Below the pieces are notes generated by a model. The model did no database searches and was not told the DNA's origin. It saw only the letters and a list, made by a program, of their open reading frames with translations. From the NCBI GenBank assembly GCA_037445915.1, contig JBBIJQ010000049.1:1-15030 (forward strand): 15,030 nt of DNA, given 5' to 3'. The stretch is from Planctomycetales bacterium. GTDB lineage: Bacteria; 4484-113. This document shows positions 1 to 8,743 of the stretch, one piece after another. Each line of letters opens with the position of its first letter. Position 1 is the first letter of the stretch. The position numbers and the translations under genes are program-made.

Positions 1-173
1 CGCGGCGTCCCAGTGCGCGCCTGGCCTGAGATCAGCCCGACGACGAGGGGAATGACTGCAAGGTGGCACGGGCTTAGCGCGACGCTCATGACTCCCCACA
101 CGAACGCAGCCAGCAGCGCAAGCCACTGTGCGCAGCCACCTGATGCCAGCAGTTGTGTTATTTGTTCGCCCAT
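1..173 (-). CDS. ccdA: Cytochrome c biogenesis / thiol-disulfide membrane electron transporter CcdA (N-terminal part, runs off the window)
   Basis: Not in the ORF track. Manual translation from ATG at 173 gives MGEQITQLLASGGCAQWLALLAAFVWGVMSVALSPCHLAVIPLVVGLISGQARTGTP. The hydrophobic helix plus SPC-x4-P motif is typical of the CcdA/DsbD-beta first helix. Lies downstream of a thioredoxin gene. Confidence 0.88.
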   Translation of the reverse strand, partial: MGEQITQLLASGGCAQWLALLAAFVWGVMSVALSPCHLAVIPLVVGLISGQARTGTP

Positions 174-197
174 TCCCGCGGGTTAATGCGCGTGATG

Positions 198-203
198 ATT
201 ATA
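198..203 (-). promoter_or_regulatory. Putative -10 box for ccdA
   Basis: Perfect TATAAT on the minus strand about 24 nt upstream of the ccdA ATG. Directly preceded by the palindrome CCTGCG-CCC-CGCAGG (204-218). No convincing -35. Confidence 0.5.
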
Positions 204-239
204 CCTGCGGGGCGCAGGATTACTTCGAACTTACTGCTT

Positions 240-338
240 GTAGGCGGAGCTTCAGCTCCGCTATGGTATCTGGAACAAACCCCGAGCTCCTCCCAGAACT
301 GGACTAAGGCTTGCCAGCCTTCGGCTGGTCCCGCCTGC
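240..338. repeat. Inverted pair of GTAG-type REP-like palindromes (REPIN/BIME-like)
   Basis: Plus strand GTAG-GCGGAGC-TTCA-GCTCCGC (240-261). Minus strand GCAG-GCGGGA-CCAGCCGAAGGCTGG-CAAGCCTTAGTCC (338-301). Both resemble units in the 8463-8743 cluster. Confidence 0.7.
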
Positions 339-375
339 AAGTATTATGAAAGCAGTATTTAGTTTGCACTAAAGC

Positions 376-807
376 CTAAGTGAACTTATAGCCAAGTTCG
401 GCCCATTTCGCTACGATGTCCTGCGCTGAAAGCCCGCCTTCCATGCGAAACAGCTGCGTGCCGTCGGGGCTCAGGAATATCAGCGTGGGTATCCCGCGAA
501 TACCCAGGTCTTTCGCGCGCTGGGGCTCCTTGTCTGTGTCAATGCGCTCAACAACAAACTTTCCCGCGTAGTTCCTTTCCAGTTCGTCCAGAACCGGTGC
601 CATCTGACGGCAGCCCGTTCACCAGTCTGCACCGAGATACTGAAGCTTCGGCGTGCTTGCAGATGCTGCCTGCGCCGGCGGAGGGGCATTGCTGGTCGTC
701 GTGCCAGCGCTAGTGTCCTGTGTAGGCTTGTTGCACGATGTGGCGATTAGTGCGAGAGACATGAGCACTGCTGCTCCTAATAGCACGGCAATAAAACGAA
801 TCCCCAT
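376..807 (-). CDS. Selenocysteine-containing thioredoxin-family lipoprotein (UxxC; 143 aa with TGA 619-621 read as Sec)
   Basis: ORFs 619..807 and 376..603 are in the same frame and join as ...LQYLGADW-TGA-TGCRQMAPVLDEL..., giving W-U-T-G-C at the WCxxC position. The cis-Pro motif GIPT follows. N-terminal signal peptide with lipobox-like ATSC, and SD GAGGTG before ATG 807. Confidence 0.85.
579..618 (-). promoter_or_regulatory. Candidate bacterial SECIS element
   Basis: Immediately 3' of the UGA: hairpin UGCCGU-CAG-AUGGCA, then CCGGUUC-UGGAC-GAACUGG (7 bp stem, G at loop position 2, loop starting 28 nt after the UGA). Folded by eye only. Confidence 0.55.
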
Positions 808-857
808 AATTGCACCTCAAAACAATTCGCGCAGGCATGCAATGCCTTCCGGCGCTA

Positions 858-863
858 ATTATA
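858..863 (-). promoter_or_regulatory. Putative internal -10 box for the Sec-thioredoxin gene
   Basis: Perfect TATAAT on the minus strand about 50 nt upstream of ATG 807, overlapping the TAA of ORF 859..1053. No clear -35. Confidence 0.5.
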
Positions 864-1053
864 CATCTTGCCTATGACCCGCGCACGCGAGTATAGCCTG
901 CGGCGAACGTCCGCCGGGGGTGGGCTTTGCAGAGTTGGCAGCGGCGGAAGGCTTGTTAGCGGCCGTGCCGGTGGATGAAGGGTTTGCGCCCTGCGGCTGG
1001 TTACACCCCACTAATACCGCAGCAAGCAAGGCAAAGGAAGCATTTGCGAGCAA
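859..1053 (-). pseudogene. Truncated lipoprotein remnant (signal peptide and low-complexity linker, no folded domain)
   Basis: Hydrophobic stretch and lipobox LVGC, then an A/S/P/N/T-rich linker and a stop. The start is uncertain: the SD-adjacent TTG downstream of the previous gene is in a different frame. Confidence 0.5.
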
Positions 1054-1079
1054 TTGCGCCTTATCAATTTTATCTCCCG

Positions 1080-1315
1080 CTAGCCTAAGGCCAACAGCTT
1101 CTTGATGTCCTCAACGGTTAGCAGCCTACCGGCTGATTTCACGACTCCGTCAATAGCCAGCGCGGGGGTCATCATCACGCCGAATTCCATTATCTCCTTA
1201 ATGTCGGAGACTTTAACTATTTCATGCTCAATTCCCAAGCAAGCGCTGCCGTCTCTGCGTGTTCAAAGAGCTTCTTGCACTTGGGGCATCCAGTTCCGAG
1301 TATCTGAATTTTCAA
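1080..1315 (-). pseudogene. Small redox-active disulfide protein (MTH895-like thioredoxin family), frameshifted
   Basis: SD AGGAGG, TTG start at 1315: MKIQILGTGCPKCKKLFEHAETAAL. It continues in another frame as LGIEHEIVKVSDIKEIMEFGVMMTPALAIDGVVKSAGRLLTVEDIKKLLALG*. Total length 236 nt, one base short of 79 codons, with the shift near 1236-1243. Confidence 0.88.
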
Positions 1316-1327
1316 GCCCGTTGCCTC

Positions 1328-2646
1328 CTATCCGAATAATGCGCCAAACAACATGCCGCTGGCAGTGGAGAGCAAAACAACGATGACGGCGAATGTTGCC
1401 GTTTTTTTTAGTCCCATAACGCTGTTAAGCACTAACATGCTGGGCAGCGATAGCGCCGGCCCCGCCAAAAGCAGCGATAACGCAGGTCCCTTACCCATCC
1501 CGCTGCCTAACAGGCCTTGCACAATCGGGACTTCAGTGAGCGTCGCGAAATACATAAACGCTCCGGCTATTGAAGCGAAGAAGTTAGCCCTCAATGAGTT
1601 GCCGCCGACAGCCGCGCTGACCCATTCGCTGGGGATAAGCGCTTCACGGCCTGGCATCCCCAGGAGCAGGCCGGAGAAGAGCACTCCTAGCAGCAGCAGC
1701 GGCATTATCTGCTTGGTGTAGCCCCAGCTCGCGCCGAACCAATCCCCCGCTTTGCCGCCGCTTGTGCTCGTGATGATGGATACGCCGATGAGCGCGGCCA
1801 AGAATGGGATTGCGGGAAGCGCGGGGAATACTGCAGCCAGAGCGGCTACTGGGACTGCAACCAAGGCTACCTTCTTCCAAGCAATTCCTAGCCATGCAAC
1901 AAGCATATATCCCAAAGCCAATCCTGCGAAGGCCGTCAATATCCATTTAGCGTTATATACGGCTATGAACGCTGCGCCGCTTGTCTCGTTAGGCTTTGCC
2001 CACGTCGCGAAGACAAGCACGCCTACAAGGGCCGCGAAAAACAGCGCGTTCTTCCATAGCGGCCATGTCGGTTCTGGCACAGGAAGATGAGCTTGCGCGT
2101 TGGCTTTGGCGGTTTCCCCGTGGCGAAAGATGAAGTGCATCAGCAGCCCGATGACTATGCTGAAGAAAACCGCCATGACAGCCCGGGCAATGCCGATTTC
2201 CACGCCGAGAATGCGCGCGGTGAGGATGATCGCGAGCACGTTTATCGCAGGGCCTGAGTATAGGAACGCCGTCGCCGGCCCAATCCCCGCGCCCAGCTTG
2301 TAGATTCCGGCAAACAGCGGCAGCACGGTGCAGGAGCAGACCGCGAGTATCGCTCCTGATACTGACGCTACTCCATATGCCAGCACCTTGTTTGCCTTCG
2401 CACCAAGGTACTTCATCGCTGAACCTTGGCTAATGAAGGCTGCTATTGCCCCCGCGATGAAGAACGCAGGCAGCAGGCAGAGGATGACGTGCTCGCGCGC
2501 ATACCAGCGCACCATTGTCAGCGCTTCGGTAACGGCATTATCAAAGCGCGGTATCCCAACTGGAAGAAAGTAGCTTATGGCGAAGCCGGCTGCGATGTTG
2601 CGATGTATATGAGCGGCCGCCACTCGCGCATCCAATCTGTTTTCAT
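1328..2646 (-). pseudogene. arsP: ArsP/DUF318-family permease, frameshifted near the N-terminus by an 8-bp tandem duplication
   Basis: Polytopic membrane protein with VCSCTVLP, FLYSGPAIN, FATLTEVP and LLLAGPALSLP motifs. ATG 2646 overlaps the arsR stop (ATGA) and reads MKTDWMREWRPLIYIA. The ACATCGCA duplication (2591-2606) shifts this frame to a stop at 2575-2577. Removing one copy restores a continuous frame. Confidence 0.8.
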
Positions 2647-3038
2647 TTATGAATCTTGGTTACATATGAGCGTGTATCTGCGCAACCACAGCGAAATCGG
2701 GAATGTGAGCTTAGCAGCCGTGCATCTTGCTTGATGAAGTCGTCAACGCAGTCTATGAACCCCGCGACGCAGGTCATGCGCAGGCTGTAATAAACCTGCT
2801 GCCCACGCTTTTCGTCGACGACTATGCCCGCAGCTTTCAGCACGGACAGGTGCTTGGATATTGTGGACATGTCAGCGCCGACCATGTCCGTAAGCTCGCA
2901 GACGCAGCGCGGGCCGCGCGAAAGTTCGTGGACGAAGAACAGGCGGGTGGGGTGCGCCAGCGCCTTGAAGACCTTCGCGCGCGCCTCCAAGCCGCTAAGC
3001 GAGCCCTCGTAACTGCGCAGTGTAGTTGTGCGTACCAT
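2643..3038 (-). CDS. arsR: ArsR/SmtB-family metalloregulatory repressor
   Basis: FKALAHPTRL...RCVCELT...STISKHLSVLK.AGIV...KRGQQVYYSL winged HTH with a CVC site. Start moved to ATG 3038 because the track's TTG at 3068 lies inside the promoter spacer. Confidence 0.92.
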   Translation of the reverse strand: MVRTTTLRSYEGSLSGLEARAKVFKALAHPTRLFFVHELSRGPRCVCELTDMVGADMSTISKHLSVLKAAGIVVDEKRGQQVYYSLRMTCVAGFIDCVDDFIKQDARLLSSHSRFRCGCADTRSYVTKIHK

Positions 3039-3039
3039 A

Positions 3040-3078
3040 GATACTTGGTAATATAGCCAAATAGCCAAGCATTGTCAA
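3040..3078 (-). promoter_or_regulatory. Sigma70-type promoter with overlapping putative ArsR operator
   Basis: TTGACA (3078-3073), 17 nt spacer, TATATT (3055-3050). The imperfect inverted repeat TATTTGG-CTATATTA-CCAAGTA straddles the -10, and TTGGCTAT occurs twice in tandem. Confidence 0.8.
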
Positions 3079-3099
3079 TGGGTTGCGGCACGCGTAATG

Positions 3100-5133
<2,034 letters not shown>

Positions 5134-7346: not shown

Positions 7347-7381
7347 CAGGCTGAAAGAACACATTTTTGCTTGGGGCGGAG

Positions 7382-8443
7382 ATGAAACGCTTAGTAGAAC
7401 AACTTGCGGCTTTGCTGATACTCGCCGCCATAATCGCATCCTGCGGCGGGGCGAATAACGCCGTGAGGACACCTGCTACCTCTGCCGCGCAAAACGGCGC
7501 GCTGGAGAAGCTCCAGTCGCTGCCCATTCCTGAAGGCGCTGACCCGGCGGTGTTCCAAATGCTCAAAGGCGAGCTGACGCGCCAGCTTGCGCAAAACGGC
7601 TGGAAGTCCGCAAGCGCGCCGCCCGACCCGGCGAAGCCCGGCAATGACGTCGCTGACCTTGCGCTTGCGCCGGACGGCACAGACTGGGCGCTTGAGTGGA
7701 CGTTCAAGAGCCTCGGCGACTACGACCAGAACGGCGCAGTGGGCGTGAGCGATATAACGCCGCTTGCCGCGCATTTCGGGCACAACGCCGCCGACGCGCT
7801 AGACGCGCTCATAGACCTTGACCAGAACGGCGTGGGCGTGAGCGACGTCACCGCAATCGCCCAGAACTTTGGCGTAACCGTCGGGGGCTATGCTGTGATG
7901 CAGTCCGCCAACGGCGTTGACTGGACGGAGATTGACCGCGCGCCGTTTGCGTCGGAGCAGGTCACGGAGCCGCGCAGGCTGTCATTCACGCTGCCCGCCC
8001 CCAACGACCTGGACATGTTCCGCGTGCGCGTCTATGACAGCACCGAAGCCGCCTTCGGCAAAGCAAGCAACGCAGTGCGTTTTGCAGCATATGACTTGAC
8101 GGTGGAGCTGGTCGTGGCGTCAACACCGCCCGTGAGCGGCATAGGCACCGAGCCCGACCCCTTCGTCGTCCAGTTCAACACGACTACGCCGATTGAATAC
8201 GACATCCGCGTGTTTTATGCGAAAGGCGAAGCCGGGGAGGTTGAGTTAACCGACCAGGTTACGTTTGAAACATTCCCGCCCGCGTTCATAAGCTTTAGCG
8301 CAGCAACGCTGCCGGAGCCCGTGAAGATGACTGTGGACAACCCCATGGCGGGAAGTTTCAACATCACCGCTGTCTGGGGAGATATCGCACCGCTAGCATC
8401 CGACCCGCTCTATTTCCGCGTCCAGGGCGGCCTCCCGGGGTAA
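7382..8443 (+). CDS. Uncharacterised lipoprotein with paired dockerin/EF-hand-like repeats and beta-rich C-terminal region
   Basis: MKRLVEQLAALLILAAIIAS-CGG signal peptide II. Repeats DYDQNGAVGVSDIT...FG and DLDQNG-VGVSDVT...FG. Acidic, Pro/Thr/Val-rich C-terminal half. Confidence 0.8.
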   Translation: MKRLVEQLAALLILAAIIASCGGANNAVRTPATSAAQNGALEKLQSLPIPEGADPAVFQMLKGELTRQLAQNGWKSASAPPDPAKPGNDVADLALAPDGTDWALEWTFKSLGDYDQNGAVGVSDITPLAAHFGHNAADALDALIDLDQNGVGVSDVTAIAQNFGVTVGGYAVMQSANGVDWTEIDRAPFASEQVTEPRRLSFTLPAPNDLDMFRVRVYDSTEAAFGKASNAVRFAAYDLTVELVVASTPPVSGIGTEPDPFVVQFNTTTPIEYDIRVFYAKGEAGEVELTDQVTFETFPPAFISFSAATLPEPVKMTVDNPMAGSFNITAVWGDIAPLASDPLYFRVQGGLPG

Positions 8444-8462: not shown

Positions 8463-8743
8463 GTAGGCGGAACTTTAGCCCCGAGTCCGTAGGCCAGGCT
8501 TTAGCCTGGCGATGGTGAACGGTTTTCGGGGTTCGGGGCTCGGTTTCAATTGAGTACGCCGGGCTAACCAGCCCGGCTGCGGGTTCTGGAATCAGGCTGT
8601 AGGGCAGGGGTTTATCCCCTGCCGTCTGTATGGTTTTCTTGTAGGCGGCACCAGCCGAAGGCTGGCTTGCTTTAGCGCCGCTCTGAGATATTCCGCGGAA
8701 CTTCAGTTCCGCTCCGGATGTAGGGCACGGACTTGTACCGCAC
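8463..8743. repeat. Cluster of about seven GTAG-type REP-like palindromes
   Basis: GTAGG followed by a hairpin at 8463, 8489 (GCCAGGC-TTTA-GCCTGGC), 8599 (GGCAGGGG-TTTAT-CCCCTGCC), 8641 and 8720. Also GCCGGGCT-AACC-AGCCCGGC (8558, reverse orientation, GCAG foot) and GCGGAAC-TTCA-GTTCCGC (8695-8712). Confidence 0.8.

What the first reader, a model, noticed from the sequence alone, without database searches (positions are those of the whole stretch)
376..807. Hidden selenoprotein: lipid-anchored UxxC thioredoxin in an arsR/ArsP/CcdA locus
Seen in sequence: two short ORFs share a frame and are joined by TGG TGA ACG GGC TGC, so the stop sits exactly at the nucleophilic first Cys of the thioredoxin WCxxC motif. 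Both halves are intact (SD, signal peptide II, GIPT cis-Pro, full C-terminus) and SECIS-like hairpins follow the UGA. Established: bacterial selenoproteins typically carry Sec in place of the first Cys of CxxC, and thioredoxins in ars-type operons next to ccdA usually have CxxC. Inference: an extracytoplasmic Sec-thioredoxin reduced by CcdA, possibly in metalloid or organoarsenical redox chemistry. Standard annotation would miss it or call it a pseudogene. I cannot tell from sequence alone whether this family's Sec form has been described.
Basis: partly seen in the sequence, partly recalled or inferred. Interest (0 to 1): 0.9.

Follow-up and report, generated by a model that had tools for sequence, protein, structure and literature searches.

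The report
Selenocysteine thioredoxin lipoprotein beside CcdA
A gene that looks broken by a stop codon almost certainly encodes a membrane-anchored thioredoxin whose reactive cysteine is replaced by selenocysteine; this is a new lineage of a known type of selenoprotein, sitting in a conserved metal/arsenic-type gene cluster.

Summary
Window 376-807 (- strand) is one 143-codon frame with a single TGA (619-621) where the first Cys of a thioredoxin CxxC motif should be (GADW-U-TGC).

Evidence that the TGA encodes selenocysteine:
- Three orthologues at 43-47% identity in two genera of the same small phylum carry TGA at the same column.
- All 160 homologous loci examined outside the phylum (80 genome, 80 metagenome) carry TGC or TGT there.
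- A 7-bp hairpin with loop UGGAN lies 28 nt after the UGA. It fits the published bacterial SECIS consensus, is identical in all 4 Sec forms down to synonymous sites, and is essentially absent from Cys forms.
- The genome has selA, selB and a Sec-containing selD. TGA is otherwise an ordinary stop.
- Contigs from three sequencing runs keep the TGA.

One gap remains. tRNA-Sec was not found in this 90%-complete assembly, although a same-genus genome has it.

The gene sits in the widespread cassette ArsR, ArsP-type permease, MTH895-type small thioredoxin, thioredoxin, CcdA.

Verdict: a real, unannotated selenoprotein gene. It is a new member of the known UxxC thioredoxin-fold selenoproteins. Its substrate is unknown; 23 of 80 Cys homologues are fused to a MerB-like domain, which hints at organometal(loid) chemistry.

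The parts
376..807 (-). Sec-thioredoxin lipoprotein gene: 143 codons plus TAG stop, read through one UGA
   Evidence: translation; PF00085, 59.6 bits; thioredoxin fold, pLDDT above 93 for residues 50-143
813..818 (-). Shine-Dalgarno-like GAGGTG, 5 nt before the ATG
   Evidence: read directly from the sequence
733..807 (-). Lipoprotein signal peptide (codons 1-24) and lipid-acceptor Cys25 (733-735)
   Evidence: Orthologues have LAGC or ITGC lipoboxes at the aligned place. The pattern match is recalled; no predictor was run
619..621 (-). UGA = Sec63, in place of the nucleophilic first Cys of CxxC
   Evidence: TGA in 4 of 4 orthologues. TGC/TGT in 80 of 80 genome loci and 80 of 80 metagenome loci. 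No difference at this place in contigs of runs X1, X2, X3
610..612 (-). TGC = Cys66, the resolving Cys of UxxC
   Evidence: invariant column
579..597 (-). Putative bacterial SECIS core: stem 591-597 / 579-585 (7 bp, CCGGUUC/GAACUGG) and loop 586-590 (UGGAC)
   Evidence: identical stem in 4 of 4 Sec forms; synonymous sites frozen; 7 of 7 pairs possible in 1 of 79 Cys forms; strain variant at 586 changes only loop position 5
3..173 (-). 5' part of ccdA (DsbD_TM family), cut by the contig end
   Evidence: PF02683, E 4e-4 on 57 aa; 72% identity over 25 aa to the G001 CcdA, including SPCHL. Full-length ccdA follows the gene in G001 and G002
1080..1315 (-). MTH895/ArsE-type small thioredoxin (CPKC), frameshifted in this assembly near 1236
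   Evidence: TIGR00412 on both halves; contigs of runs X2 and X3 carry one extra base behind 1236, which puts the two halves in one frame
1328..2635 (-). ArsP_1-family permease (PF03773)
   Evidence: E 1.5e-64; below the cut-offs for SO_0444 (96.5 against 300) and SaoE (85.8 against 325)
2643..3068 (-). ArsR/SmtB metalloregulator
   Evidence: HTH_5; NF033788, 89.2 bits against a cut-off of 55
859..1053 (-). Small ORF: a second lipoprotein signal (VGC) plus a low-complexity tail, with no thioredoxin domain
   Evidence: translation; 27 nt at 85% identity to the lipobox region of the G001 orthologue (E 1.4e-5)

Best explanation
Window 376-807 (-) is a selenoprotein gene. The ribosome reads UGA at codon 63 as selenocysteine, directed by SelB bound to a hairpin 28 nt downstream. 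The product is a lipid-anchored extracytoplasmic thioredoxin with a U-T-G-C active site. By analogy with other CcdA-coupled thioredoxins, CcdA (encoded next door) carries reducing equivalents across the membrane to keep the selenenylsulfide reduced. The Sec63 selenolate then attacks a disulfide or a metal(loid)-thiol adduct outside the cytoplasm. The gene belongs to a cassette controlled by an ArsR-type regulator that also holds an ArsP-type permease and a small cytoplasmic thioredoxin. Shown: the conserved UGA/Cys pair, the conserved hairpin, the Sec machinery genes, the thioredoxin fold and the synteny. Inferred: actual Sec insertion, export and lipidation, reduction by CcdA, and the substrate.
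For: 1. UGA/Cys pair. TGA is at the same column in G000, G001, G006 and G002 at 43-47% identity. These are 4 of the 24 species genomes of the phylum and the only 4 with an orthologue at E<=1e-15. TGC/TGT is at that column in the best 80 of 537 relatives in genome contigs and the best 80 of 507 in metagenome contigs.
2. SECIS. The hairpin CCGGUUC-UGGAN-GAACUGG lies at +25 to +43, with an identical stem in 4 of 4 Sec forms. It has G at loop position 2 followed by G, and 28 nt between UGA and the loop. The published consensus is G in the first two loop positions and 16-37 nt (PMC13188914, section 5 passage). Codons are identical at 5 of 5 amino-acid-invariant degenerate columns inside the hairpin, against 7 of 30 elsewhere. 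Among Cys forms, all 7 positions can pair in 1 of 79 and 6 in 5 of 79.
3. Machinery. selD scores 330.8 bits and has its own TGA in SCAG-U-ASK; selA scores 446 bits; selB scores 257 bits. tRNA-Sec (anticodon UCA) is in same-genus G001 at 73.7 bits, and in G002, G004 and G005.
4. TGA is otherwise a stop. It ends 124 of 508 frames of 400 or more codons, and it ends arsR and holB in the window.
5. It is not a sequencing error. Contigs of runs X1, X2 and X3 cover 619-621 unchanged. The X2 strain differs at 6 other places in the gene but keeps the TGA. All three runs are from one study, and one may be the source sample.
6. Fold. The AlphaFold2 model places U63 at the N-terminus of helix 64-79. Foldseek gives classical thioredoxins at rmsd 1.1-1.4 A over about 87 residues.
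7. Context. ccdA follows directly in G001 and G002. Within about 3 kb of 80 Cys homologues I found CcdA in 69, the MTH895-type thioredoxin in 68, the permease in 52, ArsR in 45 and ACR3 in 28 (HMMs I built from a few seeds, E<=1e-5).
Against: tRNA-Sec was not found in this assembly (90% complete, 120 contigs). The best Rfam RF01852 hit, 46.3 bits, is a tRNA-Ser. ARAGORN finds 42 tRNAs and none is Sec. blastn with the G001 selC finds nothing significant.

The hairpin stem never varies among the 4 Sec forms, so there is no compensatory change (0 of 12 pairs).

The window's copy is the most divergent of the four, with a terminal branch of 1.08. By my reading, it departs from several nearly invariant family positions, such as Q109L, H122M and F125G.

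The locus shows irregularities: a frameshift in the neighbouring small thioredoxin in this assembly, and an extra signal-peptide ORF at 859-1053.

There is no expression or selenium-labelling evidence. No Rfam family matched the hairpin, which is expected because bacterial SECIS elements are diverse.
Confidence: 0.88

Rival explanations
1. The gene is a pseudogene: a thioredoxin inactivated by a TGC-to-TGA nonsense mutation in a decaying locus.
For: TGC to TGA is a single base change. The neighbouring small thioredoxin is frameshifted in this assembly. The window's copy is on a long branch. selC was not found in G000.
Against: The same TGA is kept in 4 species of 2 genera at 43-47% identity, with intact and conserved downstream frames. 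The hairpin is frozen at synonymous sites. Contigs of two other runs carry an extra base at the neighbour's frameshift, which puts that gene in one frame, so the frameshift looks like an assembly or strain artefact. selD in the same genome also needs UGA decoding.
Confidence: 0.06
2. These are two separate small genes: a 62-residue lipopeptide ending at TGA, and a 75-residue thioredoxin fragment starting at Met69.
For: ORF callers list them this way. Met69 is conserved.
Against: Met69 is also conserved in full-length Cys forms (KMMAP), so it is a structural residue. No Shine-Dalgarno-like sequence precedes it. A fragment lacking strand 1 and the active site would not form the fold modelled. 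The two halves stay in one frame in all 4 species.
Confidence: 0.03
3. UGA is read as a standard amino acid (Trp, Gly or Cys) through a changed genetic code or near-cognate suppression, not as Sec.
For: A frame that is open under a changed code is compatible with the gene structure.
Against: TGA ends 124 of 508 long frames and conserved genes in the window. The in-frame TGAs found so far (this gene and selD) lie exactly at redox Cys/Sec positions, each followed by a hairpin. A dedicated selA/selB/selD set is present.
Confidence: 0.03

Closest known systems
Sec-containing thioredoxin (Trx, PF00085, UxxC), listed as a verified selenoprotein family in tables seen as passages of PMC9312934 and PMC13188914
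   Same: It has the same Pfam domain, scoring over threshold. Sec is at the same position, the first residue of UxxC, and the fold is a thioredoxin fold.
   Different: It is not a cytoplasmic TrxA: TIGR01068 scores 57.7 bits against a cut-off of 96.8. It carries a lipoprotein signal and a roughly 30-residue linker, is encoded next to ccdA, and its Cys relatives use C-[IV]-P-C rather than CGPC.
[quoted passage not shown]
   Same: All three genes lie together with an ArsR regulator and an ArsP-type permease. ACR3 follows in the orthologous loci.
   Different: That paper describes Cys proteins and proposes that they support cytoplasmic ArsC. Here the thioredoxin is predicted to be extracytoplasmic and carries Sec. 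No arsC was seen in the window or in the loci I read.
Bacteroides fragilis TrxP (PDB 3hyp), a periplasmic thioredoxin. Its lipid anchoring and DsbD/CcdA dependence are recalled, not checked here.
   Same: 37% identity and rmsd 1.5 A over 87 columns to the model. As recalled, it has the same extracytoplasmic reductant role.
   Different: TrxP has Cys, not Sec. Its gene context was not examined here.
[quoted passage not shown]
   Same: They are UxxC thioredoxin-like selenoproteins. SaoT sits beside an ArsP-family efflux transporter in a metal-related cluster. The I-P-C of HUIPC recalls the C-I-P-C of this family's Cys forms.
   Different: The window protein gives no hit to either model at E<=10. 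Cys homologues reach 16 bits on NF047660 against a cut-off of 105. SaoT is a roughly 85-residue protein related to MJ0307, so it resembles the neighbouring gene at 1080-1315 more than this one.

Membership tests
Bacterial selenoprotein gene (SelB/SECIS-dependent UGA recoding) | In-frame UGA aligned with Cys in homologues (Sec/Cys pair) | tested here: met
   4 TGA forms, and 160 of 160 other loci with TGC/TGT
Bacterial selenoprotein gene (SelB/SECIS-dependent UGA recoding) | UGA conserved in orthologues of other species | tested here: met
   4 of 4 orthologues in the phylum, in 2 genera
Bacterial selenoprotein gene (SelB/SECIS-dependent UGA recoding) | Stem-loop just downstream, with G in the first two apical-loop positions and 16-37 nt from UGA to the loop (consensus as given in PMC13188914) | tested here: met
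   7-bp stem, loop UGGAN, 28 nt from UGA. No compensatory changes were available. Support comes from frozen synonymous sites and absence in Cys forms
Bacterial selenoprotein gene (SelB/SECIS-dependent UGA recoding) | selA, selB and selD in the genome | tested here: met
   all over the NCBIfam cut-offs
Bacterial selenoprotein gene (SelB/SECIS-dependent UGA recoding) | selC (tRNA-Sec) in the genome | tested here: inconclusive
   Not found in G000, which is 90% complete. Found in same-genus G001 and in G002, G004 and G005
Bacterial selenoprotein gene (SelB/SECIS-dependent UGA recoding) | Selenium actually incorporated at the UGA | not testable with these tools
   Needs 75Se labelling or mass spectrometry
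Thioredoxin (PF00085) UxxC selenoprotein family, as classed by domain plus motif in PMC9312934 | PF00085 match over the gathering score, and a UxxC motif | tested here: met
   59.6 bits against 23.5; U-T-G-C
Canonical thioredoxin TrxA (TIGR01068 equivalog) | Score over the curated cut-off | tested here: not met
   57.7 bits against 96.8
[quoted passage not shown] | Score over the curated cut-off of 105 bits | tested here: not met
   no hit at E<=10 for the window protein; the family is not found at this locus
CcdA-coupled extracytoplasmic thioredoxin | Export or lipoprotein signal, and an adjacent ccdA | tested here: met
   lipobox, by recalled pattern; ccdA adjacent here, in G001 and G002, and in 69 of 80 homologous loci
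CcdA-coupled extracytoplasmic thioredoxin | Electron transfer from CcdA to the thioredoxin | not testable with these tools
   No complex prediction was run. It needs redox-state trapping in a ccdA mutant

The most novel reading that the evidence does not exclude
The C-[IV]-P-C thioredoxin/CcdA/permease cassette is an uncharacterised extracytoplasmic pathway for organometal(loid)s or metalloid-thiol adducts. That would explain why 23 of 80 homologues are fused to a Cys-rich MerB-like domain. In this small phylum the pathway was upgraded by a single Cys-to-Sec switch. The otherwise near-invariant I-P dipeptide was then lost (TG, GP, QA, GA), retuning the active site so that the selenolate itself captures or reduces As, Hg or Se species at the cell surface.
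Probability: 0.2. Interest if true: 0.7.

Novelty: new member of a known kind. Interest (0 to 1): 0.42.

Why it matters
Gene callers split this gene into two fragments, so the selenoproteome of this little-known phylum is undercounted. The four Sec forms, set against at least 160 Cys forms, make a clean natural Cys-to-Sec pair in an extracytoplasmic thioredoxin. That is useful for asking what Sec buys in a CcdA-driven reductive pathway. It also points attention to a widespread but uncharacterised ArsR/permease/thioredoxin/CcdA cassette that is sometimes fused to MerB-like domains.

Tried and rejected
- Rfam scan of window 1-3200 at E<=1 gave only two sub-threshold chance hits, neither a SECIS family. 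This is uninformative.
- The search for homologous proteins with the read-through protein returned 70 proteins at E<=1e-10, with a top score of 72 bits. They are generic 'thioredoxin' or 'thioredoxin 2' proteins. It did not reach the C-I-P-C family and said nothing about Sec forms.
- No RNA holder was listed for the stretch, so expression could not be examined.
- All runs laid were Logan contigs of one study, so they show presence but not read-level support or minor variants.
- PF03243 (MerB) in the own genome gave no match, but the control rang nowhere. This is not evidence of absence.
- tblastn with the G001 ACR3 found nothing in G000 at 1e-5. The G001 CcdA found only the cut N-terminus in the window and a 35%-identical paralogue at the start of C12. 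The rest of this ccdA is therefore unassembled or elsewhere.
- The careful tree search did not finish in 288 s, so only the quick tree is reported.
- The G000-specific minimum-energy hairpin that starts inside the UGA (+2 to +31) was rejected as the SECIS because it is not conserved in the orthologues.
- The lower helix predicted by RNAalifold (5 pairs, between the UGC codon and GCR-GG) rests on protein-conserved codons and is not claimed.
- No recent duplication links the current 5' end to the ORF at 859-1053: there is no significant DNA similarity.
- Earlier findings of the scan: nothing was returned.
- Complex prediction was not used. A thioredoxin-CcdA pair would tend to pass by likeness, and the window's CcdA is cut.
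- Supplementary files of the papers were not opened. The lists of selenoprotein sequences there might already include members of this clade.

Full report
**Observation**

On the - strand of the window, an ATG at 807-805 is preceded by GAGGTG. It opens a frame that runs to TAG at 378-376 with one internal stop, TGA at 621-619, in the context TGG TGA ACG GGC TGC. The mechanical ORF list shows the two halves as separate ORFs of 62 and 75 aa. Read through, the 143-residue product matches Pfam Thioredoxin PF00085 (E 3.3e-16, 59.6 bits against a cut-off of 23.5) over residues 58-134. The TGA falls where the first Cys of CxxC belongs.

**Is the TGA conserved?**

A six-frame search of 41 related genomes found orthologues with exactly one in-frame TGA in three other species: G001 (same genus), and G006 and G002 (another genus of the same family). 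They are 43-47% identical to the window protein. Translation shows the TGA at the same column in all four: GADW-U-TGC, GANT-U-GPC, GADY-U-QAC and GAET-U-GAC.

The phylum holds only 24 species genomes in the collection. Four of the 24 have an orthologue at E<=1e-15, and all four carry TGA.

Outside the phylum the family is large:
- Genome contigs gave 537 confirmed relatives. I examined the best 80, mostly Planctomycetota and Verrucomicrobiota, with Krumholzibacteriota, Omnitrophota and others. All 80 have TGC or TGT at this column, almost always as C-[IV]-P-C (76 by pattern, 4 by eye).
- Metagenome contigs gave 507 relatives. Of the best 80, none has TGA (78 by pattern, 2 by eye).

On a quick maximum-likelihood tree of 85 domain sequences, the four Sec forms lie on one side of a branch with SH-aLRT 99. 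The careful search did not finish and the root is arbitrary. This fits a single Cys/Sec switch.

**SECIS**

All four Sec forms share an identical 7-bp stem, CCGGUUC/GAACUGG, closing the loop UGGAN. It lies at +25 to +43 from the U of UGA, which is window 597-579. The loop has G at its second position, followed by G, and 28 nt separate the UGA from the loop. The published bacterial consensus is G in one of the first two loop positions, often followed by G or U, with 16-37 nt from UGA to the loop (passage of section 5 of PMC13188914).

Because the stem never varies there is no compensatory change (0 of 12 predicted pairs). Three controls support an RNA-level constraint:
- Across the four orthologues, 35 degenerate codon columns have an invariant amino acid, and 12 of them have identical codons. 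All 5 such columns inside the hairpin (P71, V72, L73, E75, L76) are identical, against 7 of the 30 elsewhere. By my own arithmetic, drawing 5 of 5 from 12 of 35 has probability about 0.002; relatedness is ignored.
- Among 79 Cys-form sequences, the same seven positions can all pair in 1, six can pair in 5, and the mode is four. The first 60 nt fold to -11.4 +/- 3.9 kcal/mol in Cys forms, against -16.0 to -21.5 in the four Sec forms.
- A strain variant seen in run X2 changes only loop position 5 (window 586), giving the loop found in G001.

The selD gene of the same genome has an analogous hairpin with a GGU loop after its own UGA.

**Machinery and genetic code**

The assembly is 1.79 Mb in 120 contigs and 90% complete; the window is the whole of contig C49. 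It encodes three Sec genes:

| Gene | Score | Note |
|---|---|---|
| selD | 330.8 bits | in-frame TGA in SCAG-U-ASK, the known Sec/Cys site of SelD |
| selA | 446 bits | |
| selB | 257 bits | |

tRNA-Sec was not found. The best RF01852 hit, at 46.3 bits, is a tRNA-Ser. ARAGORN reports 42 tRNAs and none is Sec. blastn with the G001 gene found nothing significant. It is present in G001 (73.7 bits, called SeC/tca by ARAGORN), G002, G004 and G005, and not detected in the fragmented G006.

TGA is an ordinary stop in this genome. It ends 124 of 508 frames of 400 or more codons, including arsR and holB in the window.

**Sequence reliability**

Logan contigs of three runs (X1, X2, X3) cover 619-621 with no difference. 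All come from one study of a subsurface metagenome, and one may be the source sample. The X2 contig differs at six other positions of the gene, among them R78K, two synonymous changes and ATG to TTG at the start, yet keeps the TGA.

The same call shows one extra base behind window 1236 in the X2 and X3 contigs. That places the two halves of the neighbouring small thioredoxin (1080-1315) in one frame. The frameshift I saw there is therefore probably an assembly or strain artefact, not a sign of locus decay.

**Protein**

An AlphaFold2 model built on a 61-sequence alignment has pLDDT above 93 for residues 50-143. The order of elements is strand 54-59, helix 64-79, strand 85-90, helix 95-100, strand 108-112, strand 118-123 and helix 128-137. 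U63 sits at the N-terminus of the first helix, and P107 precedes the third strand. Residues 1-50, the signal and linker, are of low confidence.

Foldseek's best matches are classical thioredoxins, at rmsd 1.1-1.4 A over about 87 residues and 30-37% identity. They include Bacteroides fragilis TrxP, 3hyp. The N-terminus ends in ...LIATS-C, and the orthologues have LAGC or ITGC, consistent with a lipoprotein signal. I matched this pattern from memory and ran no predictor.

The Sec forms have lost the I-P dipeptide that is kept in more than 90% of the family.

**Context**

In the window the gene order on the - strand is arsR (2643-3068), ArsP_1-family permease (1328-2635), MTH895/ArsE-type small thioredoxin (1080-1315), Sec-thioredoxin, then the first 57 codons of a CcdA/DsbD_TM protein cut by the contig end. 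In G001 and G002 a full ccdA and an ACR3 arsenite pump (466.9 bits) follow directly.

I built HMMs from a few seed sequences and searched about 3 kb around each of the 80 Cys homologues. Many of those loci are cut by contig ends.

| Neighbour | Loci with it (of 80) |
|---|---|
| CcdA | 69 |
| Small thioredoxin | 68 |
| Permease | 52 |
| ArsR | 45 |
| ACR3 | 28 |

Unexpectedly, in 23 of the 80 loci the thioredoxin domain is fused to a Cys-rich C-terminal region that matches Pfam MerB, alkylmercury lyase (best E 2.8e-23). This is the only hint I have about the substrate.

**Comparison with the known**

Tables of prokaryotic selenoprotein families, seen as passages of PMC9312934 and PMC13188914, already list these:
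- Thioredoxin (PF00085, UxxC)
- DsbA-like and DsbG-like proteins
- SaoT (NF040730)

The window protein meets the domain-plus-motif definition of the first. It is not a canonical TrxA (TIGR01068, 57.7 bits against 96.8) and does not match NF047660 or NF040730.

I found no mention of CcdA in the three selenoproteome papers searched for it (occurrence counts of 0). The search 'selenoprotein / thioredoxin-like / CcdA / selenocysteine' listed no paper holding all four terms among its top 20. Supplementary lists were not available, so a member of this clade may already be recorded there.

**Verdict**

This is very probably a genuine selenoprotein gene (about 0.88) that standard annotation splits or calls a pseudogene. 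It is a new Sec lineage, so far seen in two genera of one small phylum, within a widespread family of CcdA-linked extracytoplasmic thioredoxins. I class it as a new member of a known kind.

The open points are the unassembled selC, the lack of any expression or selenium evidence, and the substrate.

Noticed in passing
L056, L059, L065-L067, L069, L077, L078, L080, L083, L086-L088, L093, L095, L101, L102, L104-L106, L110, L111, L121 (alignment A3): 23 of the 80 Cys homologues are proteins of roughly 380 residues or more (measured from the thioredoxin domain). The C-I-P-C thioredoxin domain is fused to a Cys-rich middle part (one weak NosL hit) and a MerB-like (alkylmercury lyase) domain. Mean column identity is 72% across Planctomycetota, Verrucomicrobiota, Lentisphaerota and Hydrogenedentota.
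   Followed up: partly
window 1080-1315 (-), around 1236: The MTH895/ArsE-type small thioredoxin (CPKC) is split into two frames in this assembly. Contigs of runs X2 and X3 carry one extra base behind 1236 that joins them, so this is probably an assembly or strain artefact.
   Followed up: yes
window 859-1053 (-): An extra small ORF lies between the two thioredoxin genes and is absent from G001 and G006. It encodes a lipoprotein signal (…AAVLVGC) and a low-complexity tail. Its lipobox region matches the 5' end of the G001 orthologue (27 nt, 85%), whereas the gene's current 5' end matches neither. This may be a remnant of the ancestral N-terminus.
   Followed up: partly
window about 303-342, and 8638-8666: A palindromic intergenic repeat of about 30-40 nt has at least 10 further copies on other contigs of the genome. 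Several run contigs break or diverge there.
   Followed up: partly
G000:C26:8769-9680 (L001): selD of this genome is itself a selenoprotein gene (SCAG-U-ASK), with a hairpin carrying a GGU loop after the UGA.
   Followed up: yes
window 7367-8443 (+): A 358-aa ORF has no Pfam match at E<=0.01. The rest of the window is housekeeping: ligA, glmS, holB-like, PSP1, M48 peptidase, clpP, tig and tRNA-Arg.
   Followed up: no
L087, L092, L105, L110, L111, L113: Some homologous loci carry a second, more divergent thioredoxin paralogue of the same family (motifs such as GCVPC or GCRPC) near the first.
   Followed up: no
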